This document shows, piece by piece, positions 8,249 through 60,790 of a stretch of DNA of 64,000 nt. Made by a program: the position numbers and the translations under genes. The DNA lies in NCBI GenBank assembly GCA_030536615.1, contig JAUNPQ010000003.1, forward strand, positions 6,484 to 70,483, given 5' to 3'. This DNA comes from Bacteroidales bacterium (lineage in GTDB: Bacteria; Bacteroidota; Bacteroidia; Bacteroidales; Muribaculaceae). The notes beneath the pieces were generated by a model. It was not told the DNA's origin and did no database searches. It saw only the letters and a list, made by a program, of their open reading frames with translations. How positions within the stretch are numbered: the first letter of the stretch is position 1; the number at the start of each line of letters is the position of its first letter.

Positions 8249-9292
8249 ATGACCACAAACAGACACACCTCAAAAAAACCGACAATCATACTGGGCATCG
8301 AGTCATCGTGCGATGACACCTCAGCCGCCGTAATCGCCGATGGCATTCTGCTCAGCAACGTCATAGCCAGCCAGAGTGTTCATGAGGAATATGGCGGGGT
8401 TGTCCCCGAACTTGCCTCACGTGCACATCAGCAGAATATTCTTCCGGTAGTTGACACCGCACTCCGCCGTGCCGGCATCAGCAAACATGACCTGAGCGCC
8501 ATAGCGTTTACACGCGGGCCGGGTCTGTTAGGGTCGCTGCTTGTGGGCACAAGTTTTGCAAAAGGCATGTCTCTGGGCCTACGCATCCCGATTGTCGATG
8601 TCAACCATCTGCACGGACACGTGCTTTCACATTTTGTACGCAAGGAACAGACAGACCGCGTACCGGAATTCCCCTATCTTTGTCTGCTCATCAGCGGCGG
8701 CAACTCGCAGATTGTTCTTGTCAGGGCATATAATGACATGGAGATTCTTGGCCAGACAATTGATGATGCCGCCGGCGAGGCTTTTGACAAGTGCGCCAAG
8801 GTCATGGGTCTGCCCTACCCCGGCGGCCCGCACATTGACCGTCTGGCCGCCGAGGGCAATCCACAAGCGTTCAAGTTTGCAAAACCTCATATCCCCGGTC
8901 TTGACTATAGTTTCAGTGGCCTGAAGACATCTTTCCTCTATACACTGCGTGACAATCTGCGCCTCAACCCCGCGTTCATTGAAGAAAACCGCGCTGACCT
9001 GGCAGCCTCACTGCAACGCACAATCATTGAGATTCTTATTGACAAGTTGTCGCAAGCCGCCCGCATGACAGGCGTAAAGACCATAGCCATAGGCGGCGGC
9101 GTATCGGCAAATTCAGGCGTGCGCAAAGCCGTGGCCGACTTCTGCAAGCAAAACGGCCTTGAGGCATTCATACCGGAAAGGGCATTTACCACTGACAATG
9201 CCGCCATGGTGGCTATAGCCGGATACTATAAATATCTTGACGGCCTTTTCTGTCGTTATGAGGACGCTCCATTTGCACGCGTCACAATCTAA
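8249..9292 (+). CDS. tsaD: tRNA N6-adenosine threonylcarbamoyltransferase TsaD
   Basis: ILGIESSCDDT, GGVVPELASRAH, HLHGH, DDAAGEAFDK, DNAAM. Confidence 0.95.
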   Translation: MTTNRHTSKKPTIILGIESSCDDTSAAVIADGILLSNVIASQSVHEEYGGVVPELASRAHQQNILPVVDTALRRAGISKHDLSAIAFTRGPGLLGSLLVGTSFAKGMSLGLRIPIVDVNHLHGHVLSHFVRKEQTDRVPEFPYLCLLISGGNSQIVLVRAYNDMEILGQTIDDAAGEAFDKCAKVMGLPYPGGPHIDRLAAEGNPQAFKFAKPHIPGLDYSFSGLKTSFLYTLRDNLRLNPAFIEENRADLAASLQRTIIEILIDKLSQAARMTGVKTIAIGGGVSANSGVRKAVADFCKQNGLEAFIPERAFTTDNAAMVAIAGYYKYLDGLFCRYEDAPFARVTI

Positions 9293-9304
9293 AAATCCAC
9301 AAAG

Positions 9305-10567
9305 ATGAAACTTCAGATCATAGTCATCGGCGATGAGATTCTTCTGGGCCATGTCACGGACACAAATTCCGGATTTATAGCACGCACACTTGAGCCTCTG
9401 GGATTCGCAGTAACAGACATCCACGCTGTTGCAGACAATGCCGATGCGATAAAGGAAAGCATACGCCGGAGCCTTGACGTTGCCGATCTGGTCATTGTCA
9501 CCGGCGGACTGGGGCCCACAAAAGATGACATCACAAAACGCACACTTCTGGAAATATTCGGAGGTGAAATGGTATTTGACGAATCTGTCTATGCCAACGT
9601 TAAGAAAATTTTTGCCGAACGACATCTGGAAATGAATGAACTGACACGCCTGCAGGCCATGGTCCCGTCATCGTGCCGCGTGCTTGCCAACGCCTATGGG
9701 ACGGCTCCCGGCATGTGGTTTGAAACGCCTGACGGCAAGGTGCTGATTTCATTGCCCGGAGTTCCGCATGAAACATGCTCCATGATGCAGGGCAATGTCC
9801 TTGACCGGATAAAACAGCGGTTTATCCCTGACATGCATTTCTCGCACCGTAAAATCCGGGTTGGAGGAATCACAGAAAGCGGTCTGGCAGAAATGCTCTC
9901 GGACTGGGAGGACGCATTGCCCGCGCAGTTGCATCTTGCCTATCTCCCGGCCTCACCCGTCATAACACTCCGACTTGACTGCTCCGGAAAAGATGCCGAT
10001 GCAACAGAACGGATACTTGACCGTTACACAGCGGAGCTTAAAGCAAAAGTAAAAACCTATCTGATTGACGAGGGGGACAACCCCATTGCCGAGACCTTGC
10101 TTGAGCACCTCCGTTCACGACATCTCACTCTCTGCACGGCAGAGAGCTGCACAGGAGGCCGGATAGCCGCCTCTATCACCGCCGTGGCCGGATGCAGCGA
10201 CGTTTTTCTTGGAGGTGTGGTTTCCTATGCCAATTCGGTGAAAAGAGGCATATTGGGAGTTGAGCAAGACACATTGGAAAGATATGGGGCCGTGAGTCCA
10301 CAGACCGTTGAGCAGATGCTCAGCGGTGCCATGCATGCCACAGACGCCGATTGCGCCATAGCGACCTCTGGCATCGCCGGCCCGGGAGGAGCCACACCCG
10401 GCAAACCAGTAGGGACAGTGTGGATAGGTGCGGCCATTCCCGGACATAAGCCAGTCATGGAACTGCATCACATGTCCGGCTCACGCGGGCAGGTGATAGA
10501 GCGCTCGGTGACAACAGCCATGATTATGTTGATAAAATTACTGGAACAATCCGGCCGCCAGCCGTAA
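9305..10567 (+). CDS. cinA: CinA family protein (MoCF-binding domain plus NMN deamidase PncC domain)
   Basis: IGDEILLG...DTNS, TGGLGPTKDDIT, TAESCTGG, GAVS, SGIAGPGG. Confidence 0.9.
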   Translation: MKLQIIVIGDEILLGHVTDTNSGFIARTLEPLGFAVTDIHAVADNADAIKESIRRSLDVADLVIVTGGLGPTKDDITKRTLLEIFGGEMVFDESVYANVKKIFAERHLEMNELTRLQAMVPSSCRVLANAYGTAPGMWFETPDGKVLISLPGVPHETCSMMQGNVLDRIKQRFIPDMHFSHRKIRVGGITESGLAEMLSDWEDALPAQLHLAYLPASPVITLRLDCSGKDADATERILDRYTAELKAKVKTYLIDEGDNPIAETLLEHLRSRHLTLCTAESCTGGRIAASITAVAGCSDVFLGGVVSYANSVKRGILGVEQDTLERYGAVSPQTVEQMLSGAMHATDADCAIATSGIAGPGGATPGKPVGTVWIGAAIPGHKPVMELHHMSGSRGQVIERSVTTAMIMLIKLLEQSGRQP

Positions 10568-51709: not shown

Positions 51710-54443
51710 CTGTAAAAAGTCTTTCCTGTCCGTTAATCTCATCGCGCACCTCCTCATCACTGCGCTCCGGTAGCACCGGCTCGACCTCACGGGGCGCTTC
51801 CTCGGAAACCTCGGGAGCCTCGTCAGTCTCCGGGAGTGGATCAGGCTCGGTTTCAATGACCTCTCCAAGTGCATATGTGGTGAGACGTTTTCCTTTGGCG
51901 GTAAATCTCTTGACACCTATAAATTCAGCCGTGTGGACATCCATAGGATCCCTGAAATCATCAGGAGCGGCAAATGTCACATGAAGGACTGCCTGAGGTG
52001 TGTCAGTAAGAAGGATTATCCGCGACTTCACATTCTCACCTATGAAACGCTGTTTGCGCGCAGAGGCCTCAAAAGCAAAGCGTTTCAGGTAGGGATAGCC
52101 GTTGTCGGCATCAAAAAGCACACATGCGAACACATGGCCGGGTCGGAATTTCTCAATGCGGAGTATGTTGTCCTCATAATGGTTTGTTGCCTCGAACGTT
52201 GAGGTATAGTATTCTCCGTTGTCAAGGACAACAAGCACTTTGTCATCGCTGTTGAACTCGCCGAGGTAGCGTCCGCGTCCGTCATAGTTTATGCGCAGCA
52301 CATCCGGGTCAAACCACACCTCGCGGCCACCGAGAGTGGACATGCCTTTCTCTTTGAGAGAGAAGCGGTGCACCTCATTCTTGGTGACAAGATTGCCCAC
52401 AGATGCACGCCCTTTTATGGCAAGCTTGCTGAAATCAACATCAAACTGCAATGTTTTCAGCCTTTGCTTGGGGCGCAGTGTGACACGCACCACCTCAGCC
52501 TCGCCGTTTGAGTTTGCCGTGAACCATACAATCCGGCTTCCGGGCACAGGATGGTCAGGGGAATCCTGCGTCAGGTTATATTCACGGTCACGGACAACCT
52601 TGTTTATGCGGCAGCGCTTCATCAGATATGGGCCGCCGCGCCCGTTCTGGTATATGACATTATAGACAGTGCGTTCGTCATCCTTGCGGAACACGGCTAT
52701 ATGCAGCACATTCTTACCCACAGACAGTTTGTCTTTGACACGCACCACCTTATAGCGGCCGTCCTTATAGAACACAATGATATCGTCCATCGACGAACAT
52801 GAGCTGATAACCTGCGTGTTGTCATCTTTTTTGAGCGCCGTACCAATGAAGCCCTCCTCGGCGTTGAAATAGAGTTTCTCATTTGCCTCGGCCACATTTG
52901 CTGCCTGAATCGAATCAAAGCTGCGCACAACGGTGTGACGCGGATAGGCATGACCGTACTTCTTCTTCAGACCCTCATACCAGTCAATGGTGTATTCGGT
53001 GAGGTTGGCAAGTTTGTGCTCAATGTCGGCAATGCGGCTATTGTAGTCAGCGATAAGGCGGTCAGCATCCTCGGCGTTGAACTTCAAAATGCGTTTCATG
53101 CGTATTTCGAAAAGCCTCAGTATGTCATCGCGCACCAGCTCACGCACCAGATTTTTCTTTATAGGCTCAAGACGGCTGTCAACATGCATCACGGCCTCTT
53201 CAAGGTCACGGGCCTGCTCATACTCTTTGTCCTTGTATATCCGCTCCTCTATGAAGAATTTCTCAAGCGAGGCAAACAACAGCAGCTCGCGCACTTCATC
53301 GCGCTCTATGAGCAGTTCCTCGCGGAGTATGTTGCGCGTAGTGTCAACGCTGTAGCGCAAAACATCGCTGACCCCGAGGAACACCGGTTTCCTGTCACGT
53401 ATCACGCAGCAGTTAGGCGACACGCTTATCTCGCAGTCAGAGAAAGCATAGAGCGCATCAATACTTTTGTCAGACGATGTTCCGGGAAGCAGGTGCACGA
53501 GTATACGCGGGGTCTCGGCAGTAAGATCCTCAACCTTGCGTATTTTTATCTTGCCTTTCTCATACGCCTTCAGAATGGAATCTATGAGTGTTCCGGTAGT
53601 CTTTCCATAGGGAATCTCCGTGATTGCCAGCGTGCGGTTGTCAACTTTCTCAATTTTGGCACGTATCTTCAGCGCACCGCCGCGTTCACCGTCATTATAC
53701 CGGCTCACGTCTATGAATCCGCCCGTGGGAAAATCCGGGTAAAGCACGAAGTCCTCACCGCGCAGATATGCCACTGCAGCATCAAGTATCTCATTGAAAT
53801 TATGCGGCAATATCTTTGAGGACAGACCCACGGCTATACCCTCGGCTCCCTGGGCCAGCAACAACGGGAATTTTGCCGGCAATGTCACCGGTTCTTTCTT
53901 GCGTCCGTCATAGCTGAGGGTCCACTCCGTCACCTTGGGGTTGTAGAGGACATCGAGCGCGAAAAGCGACAGGCGCGCCTCAATGTAACGTCCCGCGGCT
54001 GCCGATGCGCCGGTAAGGATATTGCCCCAGTTTCCCTGTGTCTCCACAAGCAGTTCTTTCTGTCCCAGCTGCACAAGGGCATCGTTTATCGAGGCATCGC
54101 CATGAGGATGGTACTGCATGGTGTTGCCCACAATGTTGGCAACCTTGTTGAACCGACCGTCATCAAGAGTCTTCATTGAGTGCAGTATGCGCCGCTGCAC
54201 AGGCTTGAGGCCGTCATCTATATGCGGCACGGCACGCTCCAGAATGACATACGAGGCATATTCCAGAAACCAGTTCTGATACATGCCCTGCAGGCGGTAG
54301 CGTGACACAGCACCATCTGTGGAGTACGGACGCGCTGCCGTCTCTACGGTGTCCGCATCACTTGCCGCGGTGCCGGAATCGTTGTCATCGTATATGCCCT
54401 CCGGGGTCATCTCATCGTCTATGTGATTGAATTGGTCGTCCAT
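51696..54443 (-). CDS. parC: DNA topoisomerase IV subunit A
   Basis: DGLKPVQRRIL, YHPHGD, AAGRYIEARL (catalytic Tyr); promoter element at 54469-54476. Confidence 0.9.
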   Translation of the reverse strand: MDDQFNHIDDEMTPEGIYDDNDSGTAASDADTVETAARPYSTDGAVSRYRLQGMYQNWFLEYASYVILERAVPHIDDGLKPVQRRILHSMKTLDDGRFNKVANIVGNTMQYHPHGDASINDALVQLGQKELLVETQGNWGNILTGASAAAGRYIEARLSLFALDVLYNPKVTEWTLSYDGRKKEPVTLPAKFPLLLAQGAEGIAVGLSSKILPHNFNEILDAAVAYLRGEDFVLYPDFPTGGFIDVSRYNDGERGGALKIRAKIEKVDNRTLAITEIPYGKTTGTLIDSILKAYEKGKIKIRKVEDLTAETPRILVHLLPGTSSDKSIDALYAFSDCEISVSPNCCVIRDRKPVFLGVSDVLRYSVDTTRNILREELLIERDEVRELLLFASLEKFFIEERIYKDKEYEQARDLEEAVMHVDSRLEPIKKNLVRELVRDDILRLFEIRMKRILKFNAEDADRLIADYNSRIADIEHKLANLTEYTIDWYEGLKKKYGHAYPRHTVVRSFDSIQAANVAEANEKLYFNAEEGFIGTALKKDDNTQVISSCSSMDDIIVFYKDGRYKVVRVKDKLSVGKNVLHIAVFRKDDERTVYNVIYQNGRGGPYLMKRCRINKVVRDREYNLTQDSPDHPVPGSRIVWFTANSNGEAEVVRVTLRPKQRLKTLQFDVDFSKLAIKGRASVGNLVTKNEVHRFSLKEKGMSTLGGREVWFDPDVLRINYDGRGRYLGEFNSDDKVLVVLDNGEYYTSTFEATNHYEDNILRIEKFRPGHVFACVLFDADNGYPYLKRFAFEASARKQRFIGENVKSRIILLTDTPQAVLHVTFAAPDDFRDPMDVHTAEFIGVKRFTAKGKRLTTYALGEVIETEPDPLPETDEAPEVSEEAPREVEPVLPERSDEEVRDEINGQERLFTDEDI

Positions 54444-54678
54444 AACATCATGCCTTGAAAACAGTTTACAAATTTAGCAAATTTTCCGGGCTATGACAAA
54501 AGTTTCTCACTCAATCACCCATTCACTCATTTTGACCTGATACTGACACCGCCCTCTCACATCCCGTCACCCAAGTCCACGGCCACCGGCATACCAAACA
54601 AACGTGCCACATCCCCTCATGATTCAGCAAAGGGTGTGACACGCCGTAATCAGTCTCAAATAATTGAACGCGTCTCTC

Positions 54679-55776
54679 TCAGTGCAGGCGCTTGCTTGTG
54701 CGCACAGTGCCGTCGCTCATAACACTGCGTTCAATCACTATCTGTCCGAAGTGTGGCTCGGCTACAGCACATCCGTAAAGGTCATACAGTTCAGTCGAGA
54801 CCACTGTTGCCTTGTCGGCGGCAATGTCATCGACGCCGGCAATGGCCCTGACATTGACAAATTTGCTCCATCCGGTGGCCGTGCGGTAGTCCTCGATGGC
54901 CTCCTGGGGCACAACAAGTGTGGTCGTGGCATATTGCGCGTCACTGAAAGTATCTTCAAGGATGGTGGGGGGCAAGACGCTCTCGCTCACAAATTCCACC
55001 AGACGATTGCCGCCACTATAACTTCCCGCTCCATGAAACTCTCTGCCTGATGTCAAGCCTTTCCGCTCACCGTTCTTTTTGGCTTTCAGAACAATACGTG
55101 TCAGGCCCGACAGGCCGTCAAAAGCCCTAAAACCCAGCATTACTTCTTCCGGAATGATTATCTCCTTGACCTTGTTGCTATAAAAAGACGCTGTGGAGAT
55201 CGCCATACCACAATCCTCGCTGAACGCGATTTCCTCAATGTCACATCTTATATACGCCTGAGGCATTAAGAGCCCACCCCGTTTAGGAAAATACAGTCTC
55301 TTGATCGGACATGTGTCAAAAGCCCTGGAGGAAATTTCCAGATAACCATTCCTTGCAAAATTAATTTCTTCAAGCGAAAGACATCTGAAAAATGCATGCC
55401 CGTCAATTGTTCTGAGACTTTCCGGGAAACTGATTTCCTCAATATTACTAAAACTGAATGCCTCTGAATTTATTCGTTCCAGAGTATTAGGCAGTGTTAT
55501 GGTCTTGATGCCGGTCTCATAAAACGCTTTCTGGCCAATCTGAGTGACTTTATACGATTTCCCGTCAATAGTCACTTCCTCAAGTACCTCTATATCATAA
55601 ATTTTCTGTTCACCTGCCGGAGATAATCCTGTGCAGACAGCCGCCGTATTGTCCTTCTCATTGATAGTATATCTGCAATCACCCACCGTAACTTCGCCGA
55701 CAGACCGCATCTGGGCTGAAACAGCCATCGTCATGGCCATCAAAGACATCATTGTAAATATCTTTTTCATAATCAT
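54679..55776 (-). CDS. BspA-type leucine-rich repeat surface protein with a T9SS-like tail
   Basis: Signal peptide; IGQKAF, LPNTLERINSEAF, FPESLRTIDGHAF repeats; tail YDLYG...SDGTVRTSK. Confidence 0.8.
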   Translation of the reverse strand: MIMKKIFTMMSLMAMTMAVSAQMRSVGEVTVGDCRYTINEKDNTAAVCTGLSPAGEQKIYDIEVLEEVTIDGKSYKVTQIGQKAFYETGIKTITLPNTLERINSEAFSFSNIEEISFPESLRTIDGHAFFRCLSLEEINFARNGYLEISSRAFDTCPIKRLYFPKRGGLLMPQAYIRCDIEEIAFSEDCGMAISTASFYSNKVKEIIIPEEVMLGFRAFDGLSGLTRIVLKAKKNGERKGLTSGREFHGAGSYSGGNRLVEFVSESVLPPTILEDTFSDAQYATTTLVVPQEAIEDYRTATGWSKFVNVRAIAGVDDIAADKATVVSTELYDLYGCAVAEPHFGQIVIERSVMSDGTVRTSKRLH

Positions 55777-55982
55777 TTCACTAAAACATTTATACTGTCA
55801 CAAACTTTTTTATCCACAATCAGAATTATCGAATAAATGCCATTCGGCTTCCCATTAAAATCAAGGGAGTAGGAGTTTGAGGCCTCAGAGGTGGCATTGT
55901 TGAAGGTGTGGATGCCGGTTGCTCCAAAGCTGTCAAGGCCGCTCAGAAGCAGGATGCTGAATAGGATTTTTAGCGGTTTCAT
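55773..55982 (-). pseudogene. 69-aa relic: signal-peptide-like start joined to a T9SS C-terminal-domain-like end
   Basis: MKPLKILFSILLLSG start; LDFNGKPNGIYSIILIVDKKVCDSINVLVK end; no mature domain between them. Confidence 0.45.
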
Positions 55983-56173
55983 GGTTAGTGGGTTTTATTG
56001 AAAATGTGGGTCTATTATCAAGGATTTGAGGTGATGGCGTCGCTATTCCGCAAAGATAAGTGATTTAGATTCAATCTGCAACAAAAAGTGAAAATATTTT
56101 AATACTGTAAAAAAACACAATCTGATTCATATAAGGAGGTGGTAAAAAATTATTATCAAACATACTCTAAAAC

Positions 56174-56307
56174 GAAACTGCATCGCAAATCTGATTATTG
56201 CGATGCAGCCCCTTATATTGTCTGTGCCGCCCGGCTGGCAGCGGTTTGGCTTACTGTGCCTGCTCTATTGTCACGGCACGGTCAAGAGCAACATATTTCT
56301 CGCCGAG
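56174..56307. repeat. Left direct repeat (134 bp): displaced copy of the ompA 3' end and terminator
   Basis: Matches 59194-59327 with one mismatch (56228 C vs 59248 T); minus strand 56310-56251 encodes DLGEKYVALDRAVTIEQAQ-stop. Confidence 0.95.
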
Positions 56308-56355
56308 ATCTCGATGTTTTCCCGTAATCGTCCCCTCTATCTCGCCGATTTTGTG

Positions 56356-56363
56356 TATCTTTG
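56356..56363 (+). promoter_or_regulatory. TAnnTTTG promoter element for the Abi operon
   Basis: TATCTTTG about 120 nt upstream of the Abi GTG; no clear -33 TTTG. Confidence 0.6.
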
Positions 56364-56370
56364 CAGATAT

Positions 56371-56419
56371 AAAAAACTAAACCCGATAGCTTGACGAGTC
56401 AGGGGCTACCGGGAATCAA
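56371..56419 (-). ncRNA. Candidate ~48-nt small RNA (putative antitoxin of the Abi HEPN protein)
   Basis: Follows a full-consensus minus-strand promoter; hairpin CCCGGUAGC-CCC-UGA-CUCG-UCA-A-GCUAUCGGG then UUUAGUUUUUU; a G-U pair forms only on the minus strand. Confidence 0.55.
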
Positions 56420-56424
56420 CACTA

Positions 56425-56456
56425 CAAAGGTAGTGCTTTTTGTTGATTAAAACAAA
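56425..56456 (-). promoter_or_regulatory. Full-consensus Bacteroidetes promoter TTTG-N20-TACCTTTG on the minus strand
   Basis: CAAAGGTA at 56425-56432 and CAAA at 56453-56456, 20-nt spacer. Confidence 0.65.
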
Positions 56457-56484
56457 TCCCGGCTCAAAAAGATTACGAAGAAAG

Positions 56485-57174
56485 GTGAAATTCACTGAAT
56501 TTCAAGCGATATTATCCACCGAGAGGCTGCAACGATACCTCACTGCCTGTGGCGGCAACACCAAAAAGACGATGACACTATATCGCCTTAACCTCAATCT
56601 GTCGCAAGAGGTTTTTACTCTGTTGAGTTGCTTTGAGGTAGCTGTCAGGAACGCCATGGACAATATTCTCGTTCAGCGGCTTGGTAATGATTGGCTGCGC
56701 GATGCAATAGAGCCAGGCGGCATATTCGATATTCCGGGTTGCCGCGACAGCGCGAACATTATCCGCAAGGCTTACCGCAGATTGCAACGCGACAACAGTT
56801 ACACCCACACCAAACTCCTTGCTGAAATGGAGTTTGGTGTTTGGAAATATATGTTTGCCAATCCGCAGTATCGCGCCGTTGGGCGCAGTCTGCTCGCTAT
56901 TTTCCCGAACAAACCCCGTTCCACCGCACAATGCCAGTATAACAACACTTTCATGTTCAACGAGCTTGACGGCATCAACATACTGCGCAACCGCATCGCC
57001 CACCATGAGCCGATATGTTTTGCCCTCCGGCAACCTGTAATCGGCACATCATATATCCTCAACGCATATCAAAAACTGCATACTCTCTTTATGTGGATGG
57101 GAGTTGACAGCCATTCGCTGCTCTACGGTCTCGACCACGTTCAGCAAGTCTGCAACAAAATCAACCGGCTATGA
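56485..57174 (+). CDS. Abi family (Abi_2/AbiF-like) HEPN-domain protein, putative RNase toxin or phage-defence effector
   Basis: LSTERLQRY, FEVAVRN, FGVWKYMF and HEPN R-x4-H motif LRNRIAHHEPI; GTG 56485 preferred (TTG 56440 possible). Confidence 0.8.
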   Translation: MKFTEFQAILSTERLQRYLTACGGNTKKTMTLYRLNLNLSQEVFTLLSCFEVAVRNAMDNILVQRLGNDWLRDAIEPGGIFDIPGCRDSANIIRKAYRRLQRDNSYTHTKLLAEMEFGVWKYMFANPQYRAVGRSLLAIFPNKPRSTAQCQYNNTFMFNELDGINILRNRIAHHEPICFALRQPVIGTSYILNAYQKLHTLFMWMGVDSHSLLYGLDHVQQVCNKINRL

Positions 57175-58745
57175 ATCGCTTTATTTTAATACTTATATTC
57201 TTAATAGGTCTTTCCACTCCGGTTGTTGCTGAATTGCCTAATGGTTTTCGGATTGAATCTATTGGCAAGCCTGTCAAAGAATTTCAACTTGATTCCATAA
57301 AGTTGACCTCGCCTCTTAACTATTATCTCTCACGAGCATGGGTAAGGGTCAGCGGCAAGAACAGACATTGGGCTGATATATCGACCTCAAAATTTTTCAA
57401 TGACCCCAATGCGCCTGATGAAACAGTCGATGATGATTTGCGCAATTATGTACTTAATGAGACTATCGACGCCATTGTGTGCTATCGTGATTCTGTGGCT
57501 GCACTTGTTACTCACACCGATGGAGAGGACTTGTATATGCTCAACTATTGTTGGATTGAGGATGACCGATGGGTTAACGGAGGCCAAGGAATGGCAGACA
57601 ACCTGAGTGAAGCGGAAGAAAAATTATTGACAGATTTGCCATTCCATTATAAAAATCTGCCGAGAATAGCACAAATAAATAATTTACCGACCGACATATA
57701 TCCTTTTGTTGATTTTCTTTCTCATGTCGATACAAACCCCGAACAGTTTATGCTCGAAATGCTTCGCTTGCATAAATTAGTCATAAACGGAGAATATCAC
57801 AGGCGAAAGATTTCATGGGATATGCTTAAACGCCTCATTGCATTACCCGATTTTGCCGAGACCACCGGCACAATCTTTATGGAATTGCCTTCATGGTGTC
57901 AGCCTAAAATGGATGAATTTATGAATTCGGACACCATTAACCACAACTTGATACTACAAATTTTTCGCGAGGAACAGCCTCTCGGGTGGTGGGATAGCGG
58001 AGAATTTGAGTTTATTCGCGATTTATGGCATCTTAACCAAACGCTGCCTCAAGACAAACGTATTAAAATCATCTTGGCAGACTACCAAATACCGTATTCA
58101 CTCGCTACCAATAGGAAGGATTTTCAGGAAGCGGAAGACCGCAATACCCACATGGCTACCATCATTGCGAATACTATCAACTCCAATGTTGACAAGCGGA
58201 GCAACCTATTCCTTGTCGGCTGCGCACACGCCTATAAATCCCATCAGGCAGGCTTTGCGTCTTCTGCGGCAGGACGTGATGCGGCCTTGACAGTCGGAGC
58301 ACAACTAACCGCGGACCTCGGAGAAAACAACGTGTTTACAATATTTCAGCATGTTTTGCCGGGAGATAACAGTGGCAATAATAAATCGCCAATTCGCGGA
58401 GGCGTTTTTGACAAGGCATTTGAAGCAATTGGAAACCGCCCGTTAGGTTTTTGTCTTGCGGATTCACCTTTCGGCAGTGAGCCGTTTGATGGCATCTATG
58501 AGATAAAATATAATATTGCCACTGGCAGCTATTCAGACAATTTTGACGGTTATCTTTTCCTTTGTCCTATTGCTGACGAACCGAAAGCGAGACCATTGAC
58601 AGAAATATTTGACGATGAATTTGTAGCAGAAATCAAACGCCGTGCGTCAGCAATGGGAACCGAAAATGTAAGGCAGATTTGGTTTGGGAAAGCCGCTCTT
58701 GAGTTAACGAAAGAATACATTATCCAAATCTTAACAACAGAGTAA
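57171..58745 (+). CDS. Exported hypothetical protein, 524 aa; C-terminal half possibly ChaN/EreA/TraB-like fold
   Basis: Signal peptide; VINGEYH, IFMELP, RNTHMA, LVGCAHA motifs; ATGA overlap with the Abi stop. Confidence 0.6.
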   Translation: MNRFILILIFLIGLSTPVVAELPNGFRIESIGKPVKEFQLDSIKLTSPLNYYLSRAWVRVSGKNRHWADISTSKFFNDPNAPDETVDDDLRNYVLNETIDAIVCYRDSVAALVTHTDGEDLYMLNYCWIEDDRWVNGGQGMADNLSEAEEKLLTDLPFHYKNLPRIAQINNLPTDIYPFVDFLSHVDTNPEQFMLEMLRLHKLVINGEYHRRKISWDMLKRLIALPDFAETTGTIFMELPSWCQPKMDEFMNSDTINHNLILQIFREEQPLGWWDSGEFEFIRDLWHLNQTLPQDKRIKIILADYQIPYSLATNRKDFQEAEDRNTHMATIIANTINSNVDKRSNLFLVGCAHAYKSHQAGFASSAAGRDAALTVGAQLTADLGENNVFTIFQHVLPGDNSGNNKSPIRGGVFDKAFEAIGNRPLGFCLADSPFGSEPFDGIYEIKYNIATGSYSDNFDGYLFLCPIADEPKARPLTEIFDDEFVAEIKRRASAMGTENVRQIWFGKAALELTKEYIIQILTTE

Positions 58746-58808
58746 ATAAGCGTCTTTTCGGTCCACATACTCGCTCCATAATTTTGTGGCACCACAACCC
58801 ACACGATT

Positions 58809-59087
58809 ATGGAGCAGCTTATTTTTAGTTCTGTCGAAATTCTACCTAACGCCCGGACCTCGATAACCTTTACCGAGCCTAAGCCCGTTTTCAAGGAGGA
58901 TGGCGAGAACTTTCTACTTGACAACGACCTCGCAAGGTATTTCCTCGGCGTATGCCAGAAGTTGGCTCGGTCAATCCTCACCCTGCTTTGCGGTCAAGCA
59001 TTTTGCTTTCGCCGTGTCAATGATCCGTTTTATGTTATCCGGCAACAAAGGGTCAACGGATTTTTGTTTCACCCAAACAATTCTTAA
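58809..59087 (+). CDS. Hypothetical 92-aa ORF, possibly a remnant
   Basis: ATG-started ORF inside the island; no family confidently recognised. Confidence 0.25.
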   Translation: MEQLIFSSVEILPNARTSITFTEPKPVFKEDGENFLLDNDLARYFLGVCQKLARSILTLLCGQAFCFRRVNDPFYVIRQQRVNGFLFHPNNS

Positions 59088-59193
59088 AATACCAAAGGTC
59101 AATTTGCGTGACCATTGGTATATCAGGAAAATAGTAACGCGCACAAATGTCACAAGACAATATATTGTGCGCGAGCCAGATTTAGGGGAAAAT

Positions 59194-59327
59194 GAAACTG
59201 CATCGCAAATCTGATTATTGCGATGCAGCCCCTTATATTGTCTGTGCTGCCCGGCTGGCAGCGGTTTGGCTTACTGTGCCTGCTCTATTGTCACGGCACG
59301 GTCAAGAGCAACATATTTCTCGCCGAG
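59194..59327. repeat. Right direct repeat (134 bp): functional ompA 3' end and terminator
   Basis: Matches 56174-56307; contains the ompA stop (59271-59273) and the hairpin at 59198-59228. Confidence 0.95.
59198..59228 (-). terminator. ompA intrinsic terminator (duplicated at 56178-56208)
   Basis: CTGCATCGCAA / TTGCGATGCAG 11-bp stem, 9-nt loop, U-rich tail on the minus strand. Confidence 0.7.
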
Positions 59328-60488
59328 GTCACAGAGGTTGCCGGCGTTGATGGTTGCTGTGAGCTGTGACTCTGGAACACCGAGCTTGACAAGCTGTTTC
59401 TGCACGCCGTTCACGCGGTTGTGGCGCAGACGCGTGTTGATCTGGTCATTACCAGTGTAGTTGTCGGCCCATCCGGTGAGGATGTAGTGGTTGTTGGGGT
59501 TATCTTTCATCACTTCTGCGCATGCACCGAGAATGAGAACGTCTTTCTTGGTGAGTTTGAAGATGTTGATGGGATAGTAGATGGTTGCCAGAGGAGCGGG
59601 CTTCGGCTTCTCAACGGGACGGTTGAGGGCGTCCTGAAGCTGGTTCTCAAGGTCGGCGATACGGCCTTCGGCAGCCTCGAGGCGTGCACGCAGTGCATCG
59701 CAGTTCTCGGCGGGAGGACATACGGGAACAATGGGAGCGCTCCACTCGCGTTTTGCAAAGAGGTAAGTCACACCAAGATAAGCGGCAAGGTCATGCGAGG
59801 TGCGGTTCCATGCGTCACCTTCCTCATCCTTGTGGTTGTCTATGCCGCTATAACGTATGTCAAGTGACAACTGAACCTGTTTGCTGACGTTGTAGGTGTT
59901 GATAAGACCGGCACGGAATGTGAGGACGCGGTCTTTTGTGCGGTTCCAGCCAAGATCCTCGAAATTATCATTGCCAAGATCCTTGAACTGACGGCAGAAT
60001 GTCCAGTAACCGCCACCACCGGCATAGAAGATGGCGTTGTATTTGCGCCCGGGATGATATCCGCACCACCAGTTGGTAAGATTGATAAGAGCATCGCCGA
60101 CCGGACCGATCTGATTGAATTTCTGATTGTATTTGCCATTGATCTTGTCAGGACGGCAGTCTTCAGTGCGTACATCTGAGAAACCTTTGCAGACAAGGAA
60201 GTTGGCACCCAGACGAAGTCCGACAATGGGTGAGAACCATTTGCCGACATATATACCTGCGGCAGGACCGAAACGGTCCCATGTGCTGCGCTCAGAGTCA
60301 CCGTGACTGAAATAGATGTTGGCGCCACCTTCAGCAGTGATGAACCAGTTGTCTTTGAAGCGGTTGAAAAGGTAACCCTGCGATGGATCCTCCACATATG
60401 TGATCTCCTGGGGTTGAGCTTCCTGGCAGAAAGCGTTGACGCCTACGAAGAGAGCACACGCCATTGTCAAAAGTGTACTTTTTTTCAT
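59271..60488 (-). CDS. ompA: OmpA family major outer-membrane protein (beta-barrel plus peptidoglycan-binding domain)
   Basis: Signal peptide, NWFITAEGG, C-terminal OmpA domain GWADNYTG...N-RL...R. Confidence 0.88.
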   Translation of the reverse strand: MKKSTLLTMACALFVGVNAFCQEAQPQEITYVEDPSQGYLFNRFKDNWFITAEGGANIYFSHGDSERSTWDRFGPAAGIYVGKWFSPIVGLRLGANFLVCKGFSDVRTEDCRPDKINGKYNQKFNQIGPVGDALINLTNWWCGYHPGRKYNAIFYAGGGGYWTFCRQFKDLGNDNFEDLGWNRTKDRVLTFRAGLINTYNVSKQVQLSLDIRYSGIDNHKDEEGDAWNRTSHDLAAYLGVTYLFAKREWSAPIVPVCPPAENCDALRARLEAAEGRIADLENQLQDALNRPVEKPKPAPLATIYYPINIFKLTKKDVLILGACAEVMKDNPNNHYILTGWADNYTGNDQINTRLRHNRVNGVQKQLVKLGVPESQLTATINAGNLCDLGEKYVALDRAVTIEQAQ

Positions 60489-60758
60489 AGAAATTTTATT
60501 TTTAACGTTTTGAAATTATGCTTATTTGGTGGTTGTCAGGTTGTTAGTTCGCAGAAAGGCAGTAGGAATATGCCTCACTCAGGTTATTTAGCCGCTAAGT
60601 TACTACTTTTTTCTCATATATCTTTATCTTTTTTAATTTTTTTTGTCATAAAATGCATTTCTATCTCTTTAGGGCACAATTTCGTGGCACAATGCGTGTG
60701 GCGTACATCTTCCGACTGACCGGATTCATGGGGGGGAGGTGAATGGCCCTCAAAAGCA

Positions 60759-60790
60759 TTTGGCATTGCTCCCGCTTATTTGTATCTTTG
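60759..60790 (+). promoter_or_regulatory. Full-consensus promoter TTTG-N20-TATCTTTG for the prolyl oligopeptidase operon
   Basis: TTTG at 60759-60762; TATCTTTG at 60783-60790. Confidence 0.65.

What the first reader, a model, noticed from the sequence alone, without database searches (positions are those of the whole stretch)
56356..57174. Abi_2/AbiF-like HEPN RNase with a dedicated ~48-nt small RNA: candidate RNA-antitoxin phage-defence system
Seen in sequence: the Abi ORF has an intact HEPN motif (RNRIAH). Its ~115-nt leader holds a complete minus-strand transcription unit. The unit consists of a consensus promoter TTTG-N20-TACCTTTG (56456-56425), a 32-nt bulged hairpin (56413-56382) and UUUAGUUUUUU (56381-56371). 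The outer stem has a G-U pair on the minus strand that would be an A-C mismatch on the plus strand, favouring the minus RNA as functional. Established: AbiF-type HEPN nucleases have been reported to be neutralised by a small cis-encoded RNA (type III TA-like) and proposed as relatives of Cas13, whose repeats are also short bulged hairpins. Inference: this RNA either binds and inhibits the nuclease or acts antisense on the toxin leader (type I-like). The convergent-promoter geometry and this Abi clade may be uncharacterised.
Basis: partly seen in the sequence, partly recalled or inferred. Interest (0 to 1): 0.85.

Follow-up and report, generated by a model that had tools for sequence, protein, structure and literature searches.

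The report
Abi toxin with its own antitoxin-like small RNA
A short phage-defence RNase gene (Abi_2/AbiF-like) sits beside a tiny, separately promoted hairpin-RNA gene on the opposite strand, most likely its RNA antidote; the pair is spread across Bacteroidota, and phages carry lone copies of the hairpin.

Summary
An 819-bp cassette (56356-57174) holds a 229-aa Abi_2 protein with an intact HEPN motif. It also holds a minus-strand unit: Bacteroidota promoter (TTTG-N20-TACCTTTG), 32-nt bulged hairpin, U-tract.

About 200 related loci from genomes, metagenomes and phages keep this unit. In 176 unique units the -7 box is exact in 159 and the promoter spacer is mostly 20 nt. The stem covaries.

Five lines say the minus strand is the RNA:
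- wobble pairs;
- GNRA/UNCG-type loops in that orientation only (49/76 against 1/76);
- the conserved promoter;
- 13 loci where the whole unit lies downstream of abi on the same strand;
- phage copies co-oriented with tRNA arrays or the capsid gene.

The RNA does not match Rfam abiF (RF03085) and its bulges are arranged the other way round.

Best reading: a type III-like RNA antitoxin of an AbiF-type toxin, in a new layout. No expression or toxicity data could be obtained, because the tools for sequencing runs and whole genomes were closed. Earlier notes of this scan describe similar AbiF-plus-small-RNA layouts on other DNA.

The parts
56356..56363 (+). Plus-strand -7 box TATCTTTG, the probable promoter of the abi mRNA. 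The mRNA would read through the small-RNA gene in antisense. There is no -33 TTTG in this window.
   Evidence: Read from the sequence. An exact TAnnTTTG lies 4-12 nt before the A-run in 50 of 74 unique genome loci. Homology with relatives begins at 56356 in most loci.
56371..56381 (-). U-tract UUUAGUUUUUU, the intrinsic-terminator tail and predicted 3' end of the small RNA.
   Evidence: Read from the sequence. At least 7 T in the 11 nt after the hairpin in 171 of 176 unique units.
56382..56413 (-). Bulged hairpin of the small RNA: a 9-bp outer stem with a G-U at pair 5, an internal loop (5' CCC, 3' A), an inner stem UGA/UCA and the loop CUCG.
   Evidence: 100% of 888 cells are paired on 74 genome loci. 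98.2% are paired on 83 diverse hairpins, with 107 double-sided changes against 26.7 in shuffles. Covariance model score 65.9 bits on the minus strand.
56414..56424 (-). The 11 nt between the -7 box and the hairpin. The predicted transcription start lies here, leaving a short 5' leader (...GUUGAUU).
   Evidence: The box-to-hairpin distance is 11 nt in 92 of 113 units with an exact promoter. The position of the start is inferred from the known Bacteroidota promoter geometry.
56425..56456 (-). Promoter of the small RNA: -33 TTTG (56456-56453), a 20-nt spacer, and -7 TACCTTTG (56432-56425).
   Evidence: The -7 box is exact in 159 of 176 unique units. The -33 is exact in 119 and has at most 1 mismatch in 163. 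The spacer is 20 nt in 94 of 113, while its sequence varies. The consensus is rare in the window: 6 found against 0.44 expected.
56420..56445 (+). Weak plus-strand hairpin CACTAC-AAAG-GTAGTG followed by CTTTTTGTTG. It is a possible attenuator of the abi leader. Its loop holds the minus-strand -7 box.
   Evidence: The terminator scan finds it. Pairing across loci is only modestly better on plus than on minus (384 against 352 of 444 cells), with C:G to T:A covariation in 7 loci. It is lost in distant clades.
56485..57174 (+). abi gene: a 229-aa Abi_2/AbiD-F-like HEPN protein. The HEPN motif RNRIAHH lies at 56986-57006.
   Evidence: Pfam Abi_2. PADLOC PD-T4-5 at E=3.9e-11 and AbiD at E=5.6e-6. 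1419 close homologues. 2575 representative clusters. AlphaFold2 model with pLDDT 93.8.

Best explanation
This is a two-part toxin-antitoxin / abortive-infection cassette of the AbiF kind, in a new layout.

The toxin is a short (229-aa) Abi_2 HEPN RNase. The partner is a small RNA of about 45-50 nt with its own Bacteroidota promoter on the opposite strand, inside the abi leader.

The RNA folds into a 9-bp stem, a conserved asymmetric internal loop (5' CYC, 3' A), a UGA/UCA inner stem and a stable tetraloop. It ends at its own U-tract.

Shown here: the gene structure, its conservation, the strand, and its strict linkage to abi in two orientations.

Inferred by analogy with PbAbiF-AbiFr and AbiFCd-RCd22: the RNA binds the Abi dimer through the internal loop and blocks the HEPN site. 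When infection stops host transcription or degrades the RNA, free Abi cuts RNA and aborts the infection.

In the window's layout the abi mRNA must start upstream (the -7 box at 56356) and cross the small-RNA gene head-on. Antitoxin transcription probably also throttles toxin transcription, and the two RNAs can pair. This extra layer is inferred and is not universal.
For: - Protein: Abi_2 above the Pfam cut-off with an invariant HEPN motif; matches to defence-family models.
- Cassette: homology to relatives covers only about 56356-57174, within otherwise unrelated flanks. The downstream 524-aa ORF is shared with only one locus.
- RNA unit: promoter, spacing, hairpin and U-tract are conserved in 176 unique units from gut, rumen and freshwater Bacteroidota. 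The stem covaries.
- Strand, wobble pairs: 16 stem variants fit the minus-like strand and 3 fit the plus-like strand.
- Strand, apical loops: GNRA, UNCG, CNCG or CUUG in 49 of 76 hairpins when read minus-like, against 1 of 76 when read plus-like.
- Strand, phage copies: they are co-oriented with tRNA arrays, the capsid gene or flanking operons.
- Trans action: in 13 loci the whole unit sits 62-102 nt downstream of abi on the same strand and keeps its promoter.
- Known systems of the same logic: 10.1101/2025.04.15.648962, PMC12737573, PMC13064643.
Against: - No test of toxicity or binding was possible.
- The protein is only distantly related to the solved AbiF: profile against 8VZ6 gives E=0.044. 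Foldseek of a confident model finds neither 8VZ6 nor anything else.
- The RNA does not match Rfam abiF and its bulges are mirrored relative to that motif.
- One lineage has an A-C mismatch at stem pair 5 on the proposed RNA strand.
- Units without a detectable abi exist, so the RNA may have a life of its own.
Confidence: 0.66

Rival explanations
1. The functional RNA is the plus-strand leader of the abi mRNA, a cis element like RCd22 or the abiF motif. It would be followed by an attenuator (hairpin 2 plus a T-run). The minus-strand 'promoter' would be a coincidence.
For: Known AbiF ncRNAs lie upstream on the same strand and end in a terminator with read-through. Read on the plus strand, the hairpin has a small 5' bulge and a larger 3' bulge, like RF03085. 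A plus-strand -7 box and a hairpin with a T-run are present.
Against: - Read on the plus strand, the stem carries an A-C or C-A mismatch in most lineages.
- Stable tetraloops appear only on the other strand.
- The CAAAnnTA-N20-CAAA motif is kept even where hairpin 2 and the T-run are lost.
- In 13 loci the element lies 3' of abi in antisense and cannot be a leader.
- Phage copies are all transcribed the other way.
Confidence: 0.04
2. The small RNA acts only as a cis-antisense (type I-like) regulator, or through transcriptional interference on the abi leader, without binding the protein.
For: In the window and in 143 loci the RNA gene lies inside the abi leader on the opposite strand. It is fully complementary to the leader and faces the abi promoter.
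Against: The layout with the RNA downstream on the same strand has no such overlap, yet keeps the unit intact. The strongest conservation is in the internal loop and the helix geometry, not in a long pairing stretch. Phage copies without abi have no leader to pair with.
Confidence: 0.1
3. The small RNA is a needed cofactor or activator of the nuclease (guide-like, as crRNA is for Cas13), not an antitoxin.
For: AbiF is the proposed ancestor of Cas13, and an intermediate (Cas13e) uses its RNA both ways (PMC12737573). The sequence data show linkage only, not the sign of the effect.
Against: The hairpin is invariant in its core, there is no variable spacer-like part, and no arrays are seen: at most two tandem copies, in L068 and L069. 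Phages would gain nothing from carrying an activator of a host nuclease. Both characterised AbiF RNAs are inhibitors.
Confidence: 0.08
4. The hairpin is just a transcription terminator or insulator that travels with mobile DNA, with no specific tie to the Abi protein.
For: It is a GC-rich hairpin followed by a U-tract. In crAss-like phages it stands directly after the major capsid gene, where a terminator is expected.
Against: It has its own conserved promoter, so it terminates little but itself. The internal-loop bases and inner stem stay fixed while the outer stem covaries across distant lineages. It always lies on one side of an abi gene: 156 loci have abi on the promoter side and none on the other. 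Inside phage tRNA arrays it lacks a good U-tract.
Confidence: 0.05

Closest known systems
AbiF / AbiD-F type III toxin-antitoxin systems: PbAbiF-AbiFr (Prevotellaceae bacterium, PDB 8VZ6) and AbiFCd-RCd22 of C. difficile phage phi027/phiC2
   Same: An Abi_2 HEPN toxin with an R-x4-H motif next to a short, conserved, hairpin-forming ncRNA with an internal bulge. Compact two-part cassette on mobile DNA. Expected logic: the RNA blocks the nuclease.
   Different: - The protein is much shorter (229 against about 290-300 aa) and barely alignable (E=0.044 to 8VZ6; weak hhalign to phiC2 AbiF).
- The RNA is not RF03085. Our model does not hit the phiC2 motif. The bulges are mirrored.
- The RNA has its own promoter and terminator. 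It lies on the opposite strand, or downstream of the toxin, instead of being the co-transcribed 5' part of the toxin mRNA.
ToxIN / CptIN / TenpIN type III TA systems
   Same: A protein RNase toxin held in check by a small structured RNA encoded beside it. For ToxIN, phage escape by RNA mimicry is known (Blower et al. 2012, listed in the references of PMC13064643; my recollection for the details).
   Different: Those antitoxins are tandem repeat arrays upstream of the toxin that the toxin itself cuts into units. Here there is a single hairpin gene, with two copies only in L068 and L069. The toxin folds are unrelated to HEPN.
Type I TA systems (antisense RNA antitoxins)
   Same: In the window's layout the small RNA is encoded opposite the toxin's 5' leader and is fully complementary to it.
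   Different: The overlap is not conserved: 13 loci have the RNA downstream on the same strand. The conserved features are structural, and the toxin is a nuclease of more than 200 aa, not a small membrane peptide.
CRISPR-Cas13 (type VI)
   Same: HEPN RNase partnered with a short hairpin RNA. AbiF has been proposed as the ancestor (PMC12737573).
   Different: No repeat-spacer array, no variable guide part, a single HEPN-type motif per protein, and no cas genes nearby.

Membership tests
AbiF / AbiD-F type III TA (Abi_2 toxin + ncRNA) | Toxin carries the Pfam Abi_2 domain | tested here: met
   PF07751, E=1.2e-7, 32.7 bits against a cut-off of 25.6, residues 23-192 on model positions 16-182 of 184. 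PADLOC AbiD and PD-T4-5 also match.
AbiF / AbiD-F type III TA (Abi_2 toxin + ncRNA) | Conserved HEPN R-x4-6-H catalytic motif | tested here: met
   RNRIAHH. R168, N169, R170, A172 and H174 are invariant and H173 is kept in at least 90% of 42 sequences down to 33% identity.
AbiF / AbiD-F type III TA (Abi_2 toxin + ncRNA) | Fold like the solved AbiF (8VZ6) | tested here: inconclusive
   The AlphaFold2 model is confident (pLDDT 93.8). Foldseek nevertheless gives no match with E<=0.001 in PDB or BFVD, and 8VZ6 is not among the 50 matches listed. A sequence profile reaches 8VZ6 only at E=0.044 over residues 27-136.
AbiF / AbiD-F type III TA (Abi_2 toxin + ncRNA) | Conserved structured ncRNA encoded next to the toxin gene | tested here: met
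   The hairpin unit is next to abi in 156 loci and covaries.
AbiF / AbiD-F type III TA (Abi_2 toxin + ncRNA) | ncRNA is the Rfam abiF motif (RF03085) | tested here: not met
   No RF03085 match at E<=10 in the leader or at E<=1 in 5.5 kb. The own genome has nothing above the cut-off. The phiC2 control scores 37.6 bits. Our model does not hit that control site.
AbiF / AbiD-F type III TA (Abi_2 toxin + ncRNA) | ncRNA upstream on the toxin's strand and co-transcribed with it (as RCd22) | tested here: not met
   The RNA strand is opposite to abi in the window and in 143 loci. It is downstream on the same strand in 13, and the unit keeps its own promoter in most copies.
AbiF / AbiD-F type III TA (Abi_2 toxin + ncRNA) | Toxin is toxic, and the RNA binds and neutralises it | not testable with these tools
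   Needs expression, rescue and pull-down experiments.
Type I TA | Antisense RNA overlaps the toxin mRNA in all members | tested here: not met
   An overlap with the leader is possible in the window's layout but absent in the 13 loci with the RNA downstream.
ToxIN-like type III TA | Tandem array of antitoxin repeats upstream of the toxin | tested here: not met
   There is a single copy in the window. Two tandem copies occur only in L068 and L069.
CRISPR-Cas13 | Repeat-spacer array with variable spacers | tested here: not met
   There is no array in 55000-60500. The hairpin has no variable guide-like part.
Intrinsic terminator only | Hairpin plus U-tract at the end of an upstream gene, with sequence free to drift | tested here: not met
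   No minus-strand gene lies upstream. The unit has its own promoter and fixed internal-loop bases.

The most novel reading that the evidence does not exclude
Phages of Bacteroidota carry lone copies of this hairpin as antitoxin mimics that disarm the short Abi_2 toxin.

The copies keep the internal loop and inner stem (which the search pattern itself fixed) and are all transcribed in the RNA's sense. They sit at the 3' end of the crAss-type major capsid mRNA, inside phage tRNA arrays between two tRNAs, after a Ro60-like gene, or as promoter-driven genes without abi.

This would be RNA-antitoxin mimicry in the dominant human and animal gut phage group. It would also tie phage tRNA arrays to defence evasion in a new way.
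Probability: 0.3. Interest if true: 0.8.

Novelty: new variant of a known kind. Interest (0 to 1): 0.62.

Why it matters
RNA-antitoxin control of AbiF-type HEPN nucleases was worked out only in 2025 and is proposed as the root of Cas13.

This cassette shows a second solution within the same protein superfamily: a different RNA family made as an independent gene that can sit on either strand. It is common in gut, rumen and freshwater Bacteroidota.

It offers a compact model of about 820 bp for how a HEPN nuclease recognises a hairpin. It also gives a clean RNA family for Rfam and a direct lead to phage counter-defence. A cultured carrier exists: Hymenobacter monticola KACC 22596, plasmid NZ_CP094539.1.

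Tried and rejected
- Rfam scans of the region and of the own genome found no abiF motif. They returned only sub-threshold noise: ffh, a snoRNA, mir-129 and Atu_C9 at 58947-59121.
- Foldseek of a confident model against PDB and BFVD gave nothing usable.
- NCBIfam gave no hit.
- The 524-aa downstream ORF was tested as a conserved partner and rejected. It occurs only in L001 and has no family match.
- The plus-strand leader reading was taken seriously because of the RCd22 precedent and the RF03085-like bulge order. It was rejected on five independent lines (see the rival explanations).
- Hairpin 2 as a conserved attenuator has only weak, lineage-limited support.
- No cultured phage matches the crAss hairpin region.
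- The primary PbAbiF paper is not in the library, so the orientation and sequence of AbiFr could not be compared directly.
No reads could therefore be laid, and the rest of the genome could not be searched.

Full report
**What is in the window.**

Between a small minus-strand ORF and a 524-aa ORF lies an 819-bp cassette, 56356-57174.
- The coding part starts at GTG 56485, not at the TTG at 56440, and encodes 229 aa. Nearly all of the 120 listed homologues are 228-232 aa, and relatives carry ATG or GTG at this same position.
- The protein matches Pfam Abi_2 above the curated cut-off. It also matches the defence models PD-T4-5 and AbiD.
- The HEPN motif RNRIAHH (56986-57006) is invariant or nearly so in 42 homologues down to 33% identity.
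- The 115-nt leader holds, on the minus strand: TTTG (56456-56453), 20 nt, TACCTTTG (56432-56425), 11 nt, a 32-nt bulged hairpin (56413-56382) and UUUAGUUUUUU (56381-56371).
- A plus-strand -7 box, TATCTTTG, lies at 56356-56363.

**More than chance.**

- The full Bacteroidota promoter consensus occurs 6 times in 64 kb against 0.44 expected. In my reading of the ORF list, two of the other five lie just upstream of long ORFs on the same strand: 54469-54500 before the ORF ending at 54443, and 60759-60790 before the ORF from 60780.
- A genome scan gave 80 loci with homologues of 60-95% identity, mainly Muribaculaceae, other Bacteroidales and Paludibacteraceae.
- DNA similarity to the window covers only about 56356-57174, so the flanks are unrelated. 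The 524-aa ORF is shared with only one locus. The cassette is therefore the unit of inheritance.

**The RNA unit is conserved far beyond the gut clade.**

- A pattern that left stem pairs 4-6 free recovered 120 metagenome loci from gut, rumen and freshwater samples, and 24 phage contigs.
- Among 176 unique units the -7 box is exact in 159. The -33 is exact in 119 and within one mismatch in 163.
- The spacer is 20 nt in 94 of the 113 units with an exact promoter, and its sequence varies. The distance from box to hairpin is 11 nt in 92 of those 113.
- 171 units have at least 7 T in the 11 nt after the hairpin.
- On 74 genome loci every one of 888 cells of the proposed structure is a standard pair.
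- On 83 diverse hairpins 98.2% of cells are paired. There are 107 double-sided changes against 26.7 +/- 4.8 in shuffles, and slid controls fall to 20-41% paired.
- The internal loop (5' CCC or CUC, 3' A) and the inner UGA/UCA were fixed by the metagenome and phage search pattern. In the 80 genome loci, which were found through the protein, they hardly vary.

**Which strand is the RNA.**

Known AbiF RNAs lie upstream on the toxin's strand. The plus-strand reading also resembles the Rfam abiF motif in bulge order. I therefore tested the strand in five ways.
1. Wobble pairs. Of 28 distinct stem variants, 16 have G-U or U-G on the minus-like strand where the other strand has A-C. Only 3 show the reverse.
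2. Apical loops. They are GNRA (29), UNCG (11), CNCG (7) or CUUG (2) in 76 distinct hairpins read minus-like. Read plus-like, only 1 of 76 falls in such a class.
3. The promoter. It is better conserved than the plus-strand -7 box, which is exact in 50 of 74 loci. It persists where the plus-strand hairpin 2 and T-run are lost.
4. Inverted layout. In 13 loci, 9 of them with a full-length abi, the whole unit lies 62-102 nt downstream of abi on the same strand, with its promoter kept.
5. Phage copies. They run with the local transcription (next section).

The minus strand is the RNA.

**Phage copies.**

Only one of the 24 phage contigs has abi.
- In three related crAss-like contigs the hairpin plus a run of 5-6 U follows the major capsid gene, which matches Pfam Crass_capsid.
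- In two contigs, two copies follow a TROVE/Ro60-vWA gene.
- In four contigs it sits in or beside tRNA genes, co-oriented with them. In L210 it lies between tRNA-Asn and tRNA-His of a 26-tRNA array. In L218 it lies between tRNA-Gly and tRNA-Phe.
- Five contigs have a TAnnTTTG box before it but no abi.
- In 12 loci (10 of them with no own promoter box) the longest flanking ORFs on both sides run in the hairpin's sense.
- The covariance model scores these copies at 38-61 bits.

**Mechanism.**

The data show a self-contained small-RNA gene that is tied to a HEPN toxin gene whatever its orientation.
- Among loci with a detectable abi, the gene is always on the promoter side of the RNA unit: 156 to 0.
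- This fits a trans-acting partner that binds the protein, as in the two studied AbiF systems. There the RNA blocks the HEPN site (PMC12737573, PMC13064643, 10.1101/2025.04.15.648962).
- Antisense control alone cannot be general, because the downstream layout has no overlap with the leader.
- In the window's layout there is too little room for an abi promoter between the RNA promoter and the start codon. The abi mRNA must therefore begin at or before 56356 and cross the RNA gene head-on. This should add transcriptional interference and RNA pairing. That step is inference.
- The weak plus-strand hairpin 2 with its T-run (56420-56445) may attenuate the leader in this clade only.

**Comparison with what is known.**

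- The protein belongs to the Abi_2 superfamily but to a short subfamily of about 229 aa. That subfamily has 2575 representative clusters at E<=0.001 and 94 at E<=1e-30.
- It is barely alignable to PbAbiF or to phiC2 AbiF, and fold search was uninformative.
- The RNA is not the Rfam abiF motif.
- It works like an AbiF system but fails two family features: the RNA family and the co-transcribed upstream position. I therefore rate it a new variant of a known kind.

**Earlier notes of this scan.**

Notes e1-5103608, e1-5279759 and e1-3629943 describe similar AbiF-plus-small-RNA layouts on other DNA. I saw them after my own analysis. They are unchecked and are not used as evidence.

**Limits.**

- The rest of the genome could not be searched.
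- A cultured carrier was found: Hymenobacter monticola KACC 22596, plasmid NZ_CP094539.1. Its hairpin scores 59.7 bits and sits 70 nt before an annotated Abi family protein.

Noticed in passing
window 56169-56310 and 59189-59330: A 142-nt direct repeat (98% identical), spaced 3020 nt apart. The second copy covers the last codons and the terminator hairpin of the OmpA-like gene (59271-60488, minus strand). The abi cassette plus the 524-aa ORF thus form a 3-kb insert at the 3' end of that gene, with a duplicated target and no integrase inside.
   Followed up: partly
window 57171-58745 (+): A 524-aa ORF with a signal-peptide-like N-terminus. Its ATG overlaps the abi stop (ATGA). It has no Pfam, PADLOC or NCBIfam match, and among 80 genome loci it occurs only in L001.
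   Followed up: partly
L083 7310-7343; L084; L088: In crAss-like phage contigs the same bulged hairpin plus a run of 5-6 U stands directly after the major capsid gene, in the RNA's sense, with no promoter of its own and no abi.
   Followed up: partly
L210 1850-1884; L218 3031-3068; L226 8510-8542; L215 3644-3676: The hairpin sits in or beside tRNA genes of large phage contigs, co-oriented with them, and would be released by tRNA processing. In L210 it lies between tRNA-Asn and tRNA-His of a 26-tRNA array.
   Followed up: partly
L085 12010-12100; L086: Two hairpin copies with different outer stems but the same internal loop and inner stem follow a phage TROVE/Ro60-vWA gene. Ro60 proteins bind small structured RNAs, so another partner is conceivable.
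   Followed up: no
L068 and L069, about 130 nt upstream of abi: Two tandem hairpin copies lie behind a single small-RNA promoter. This recalls the two abiF motifs of RCd22.
   Followed up: no
L093, L095, L102, L119, L123, L135 and others: The small-RNA unit is intact while the adjacent abi gene is truncated, frameshifted or replaced. In L104 a fragment with a restriction-endonuclease-like look (untested) stands in its place. These may be antitoxin-only remnants.
   Followed up: partly
L227 (Hymenobacter monticola KACC 22596 plasmid NZ_CP094539.1, record 8644-9446): A cultured Cytophagales strain carries the cassette on a 15-kb plasmid next to a recombinase gene. This makes it a ready experimental system.
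   Followed up: partly
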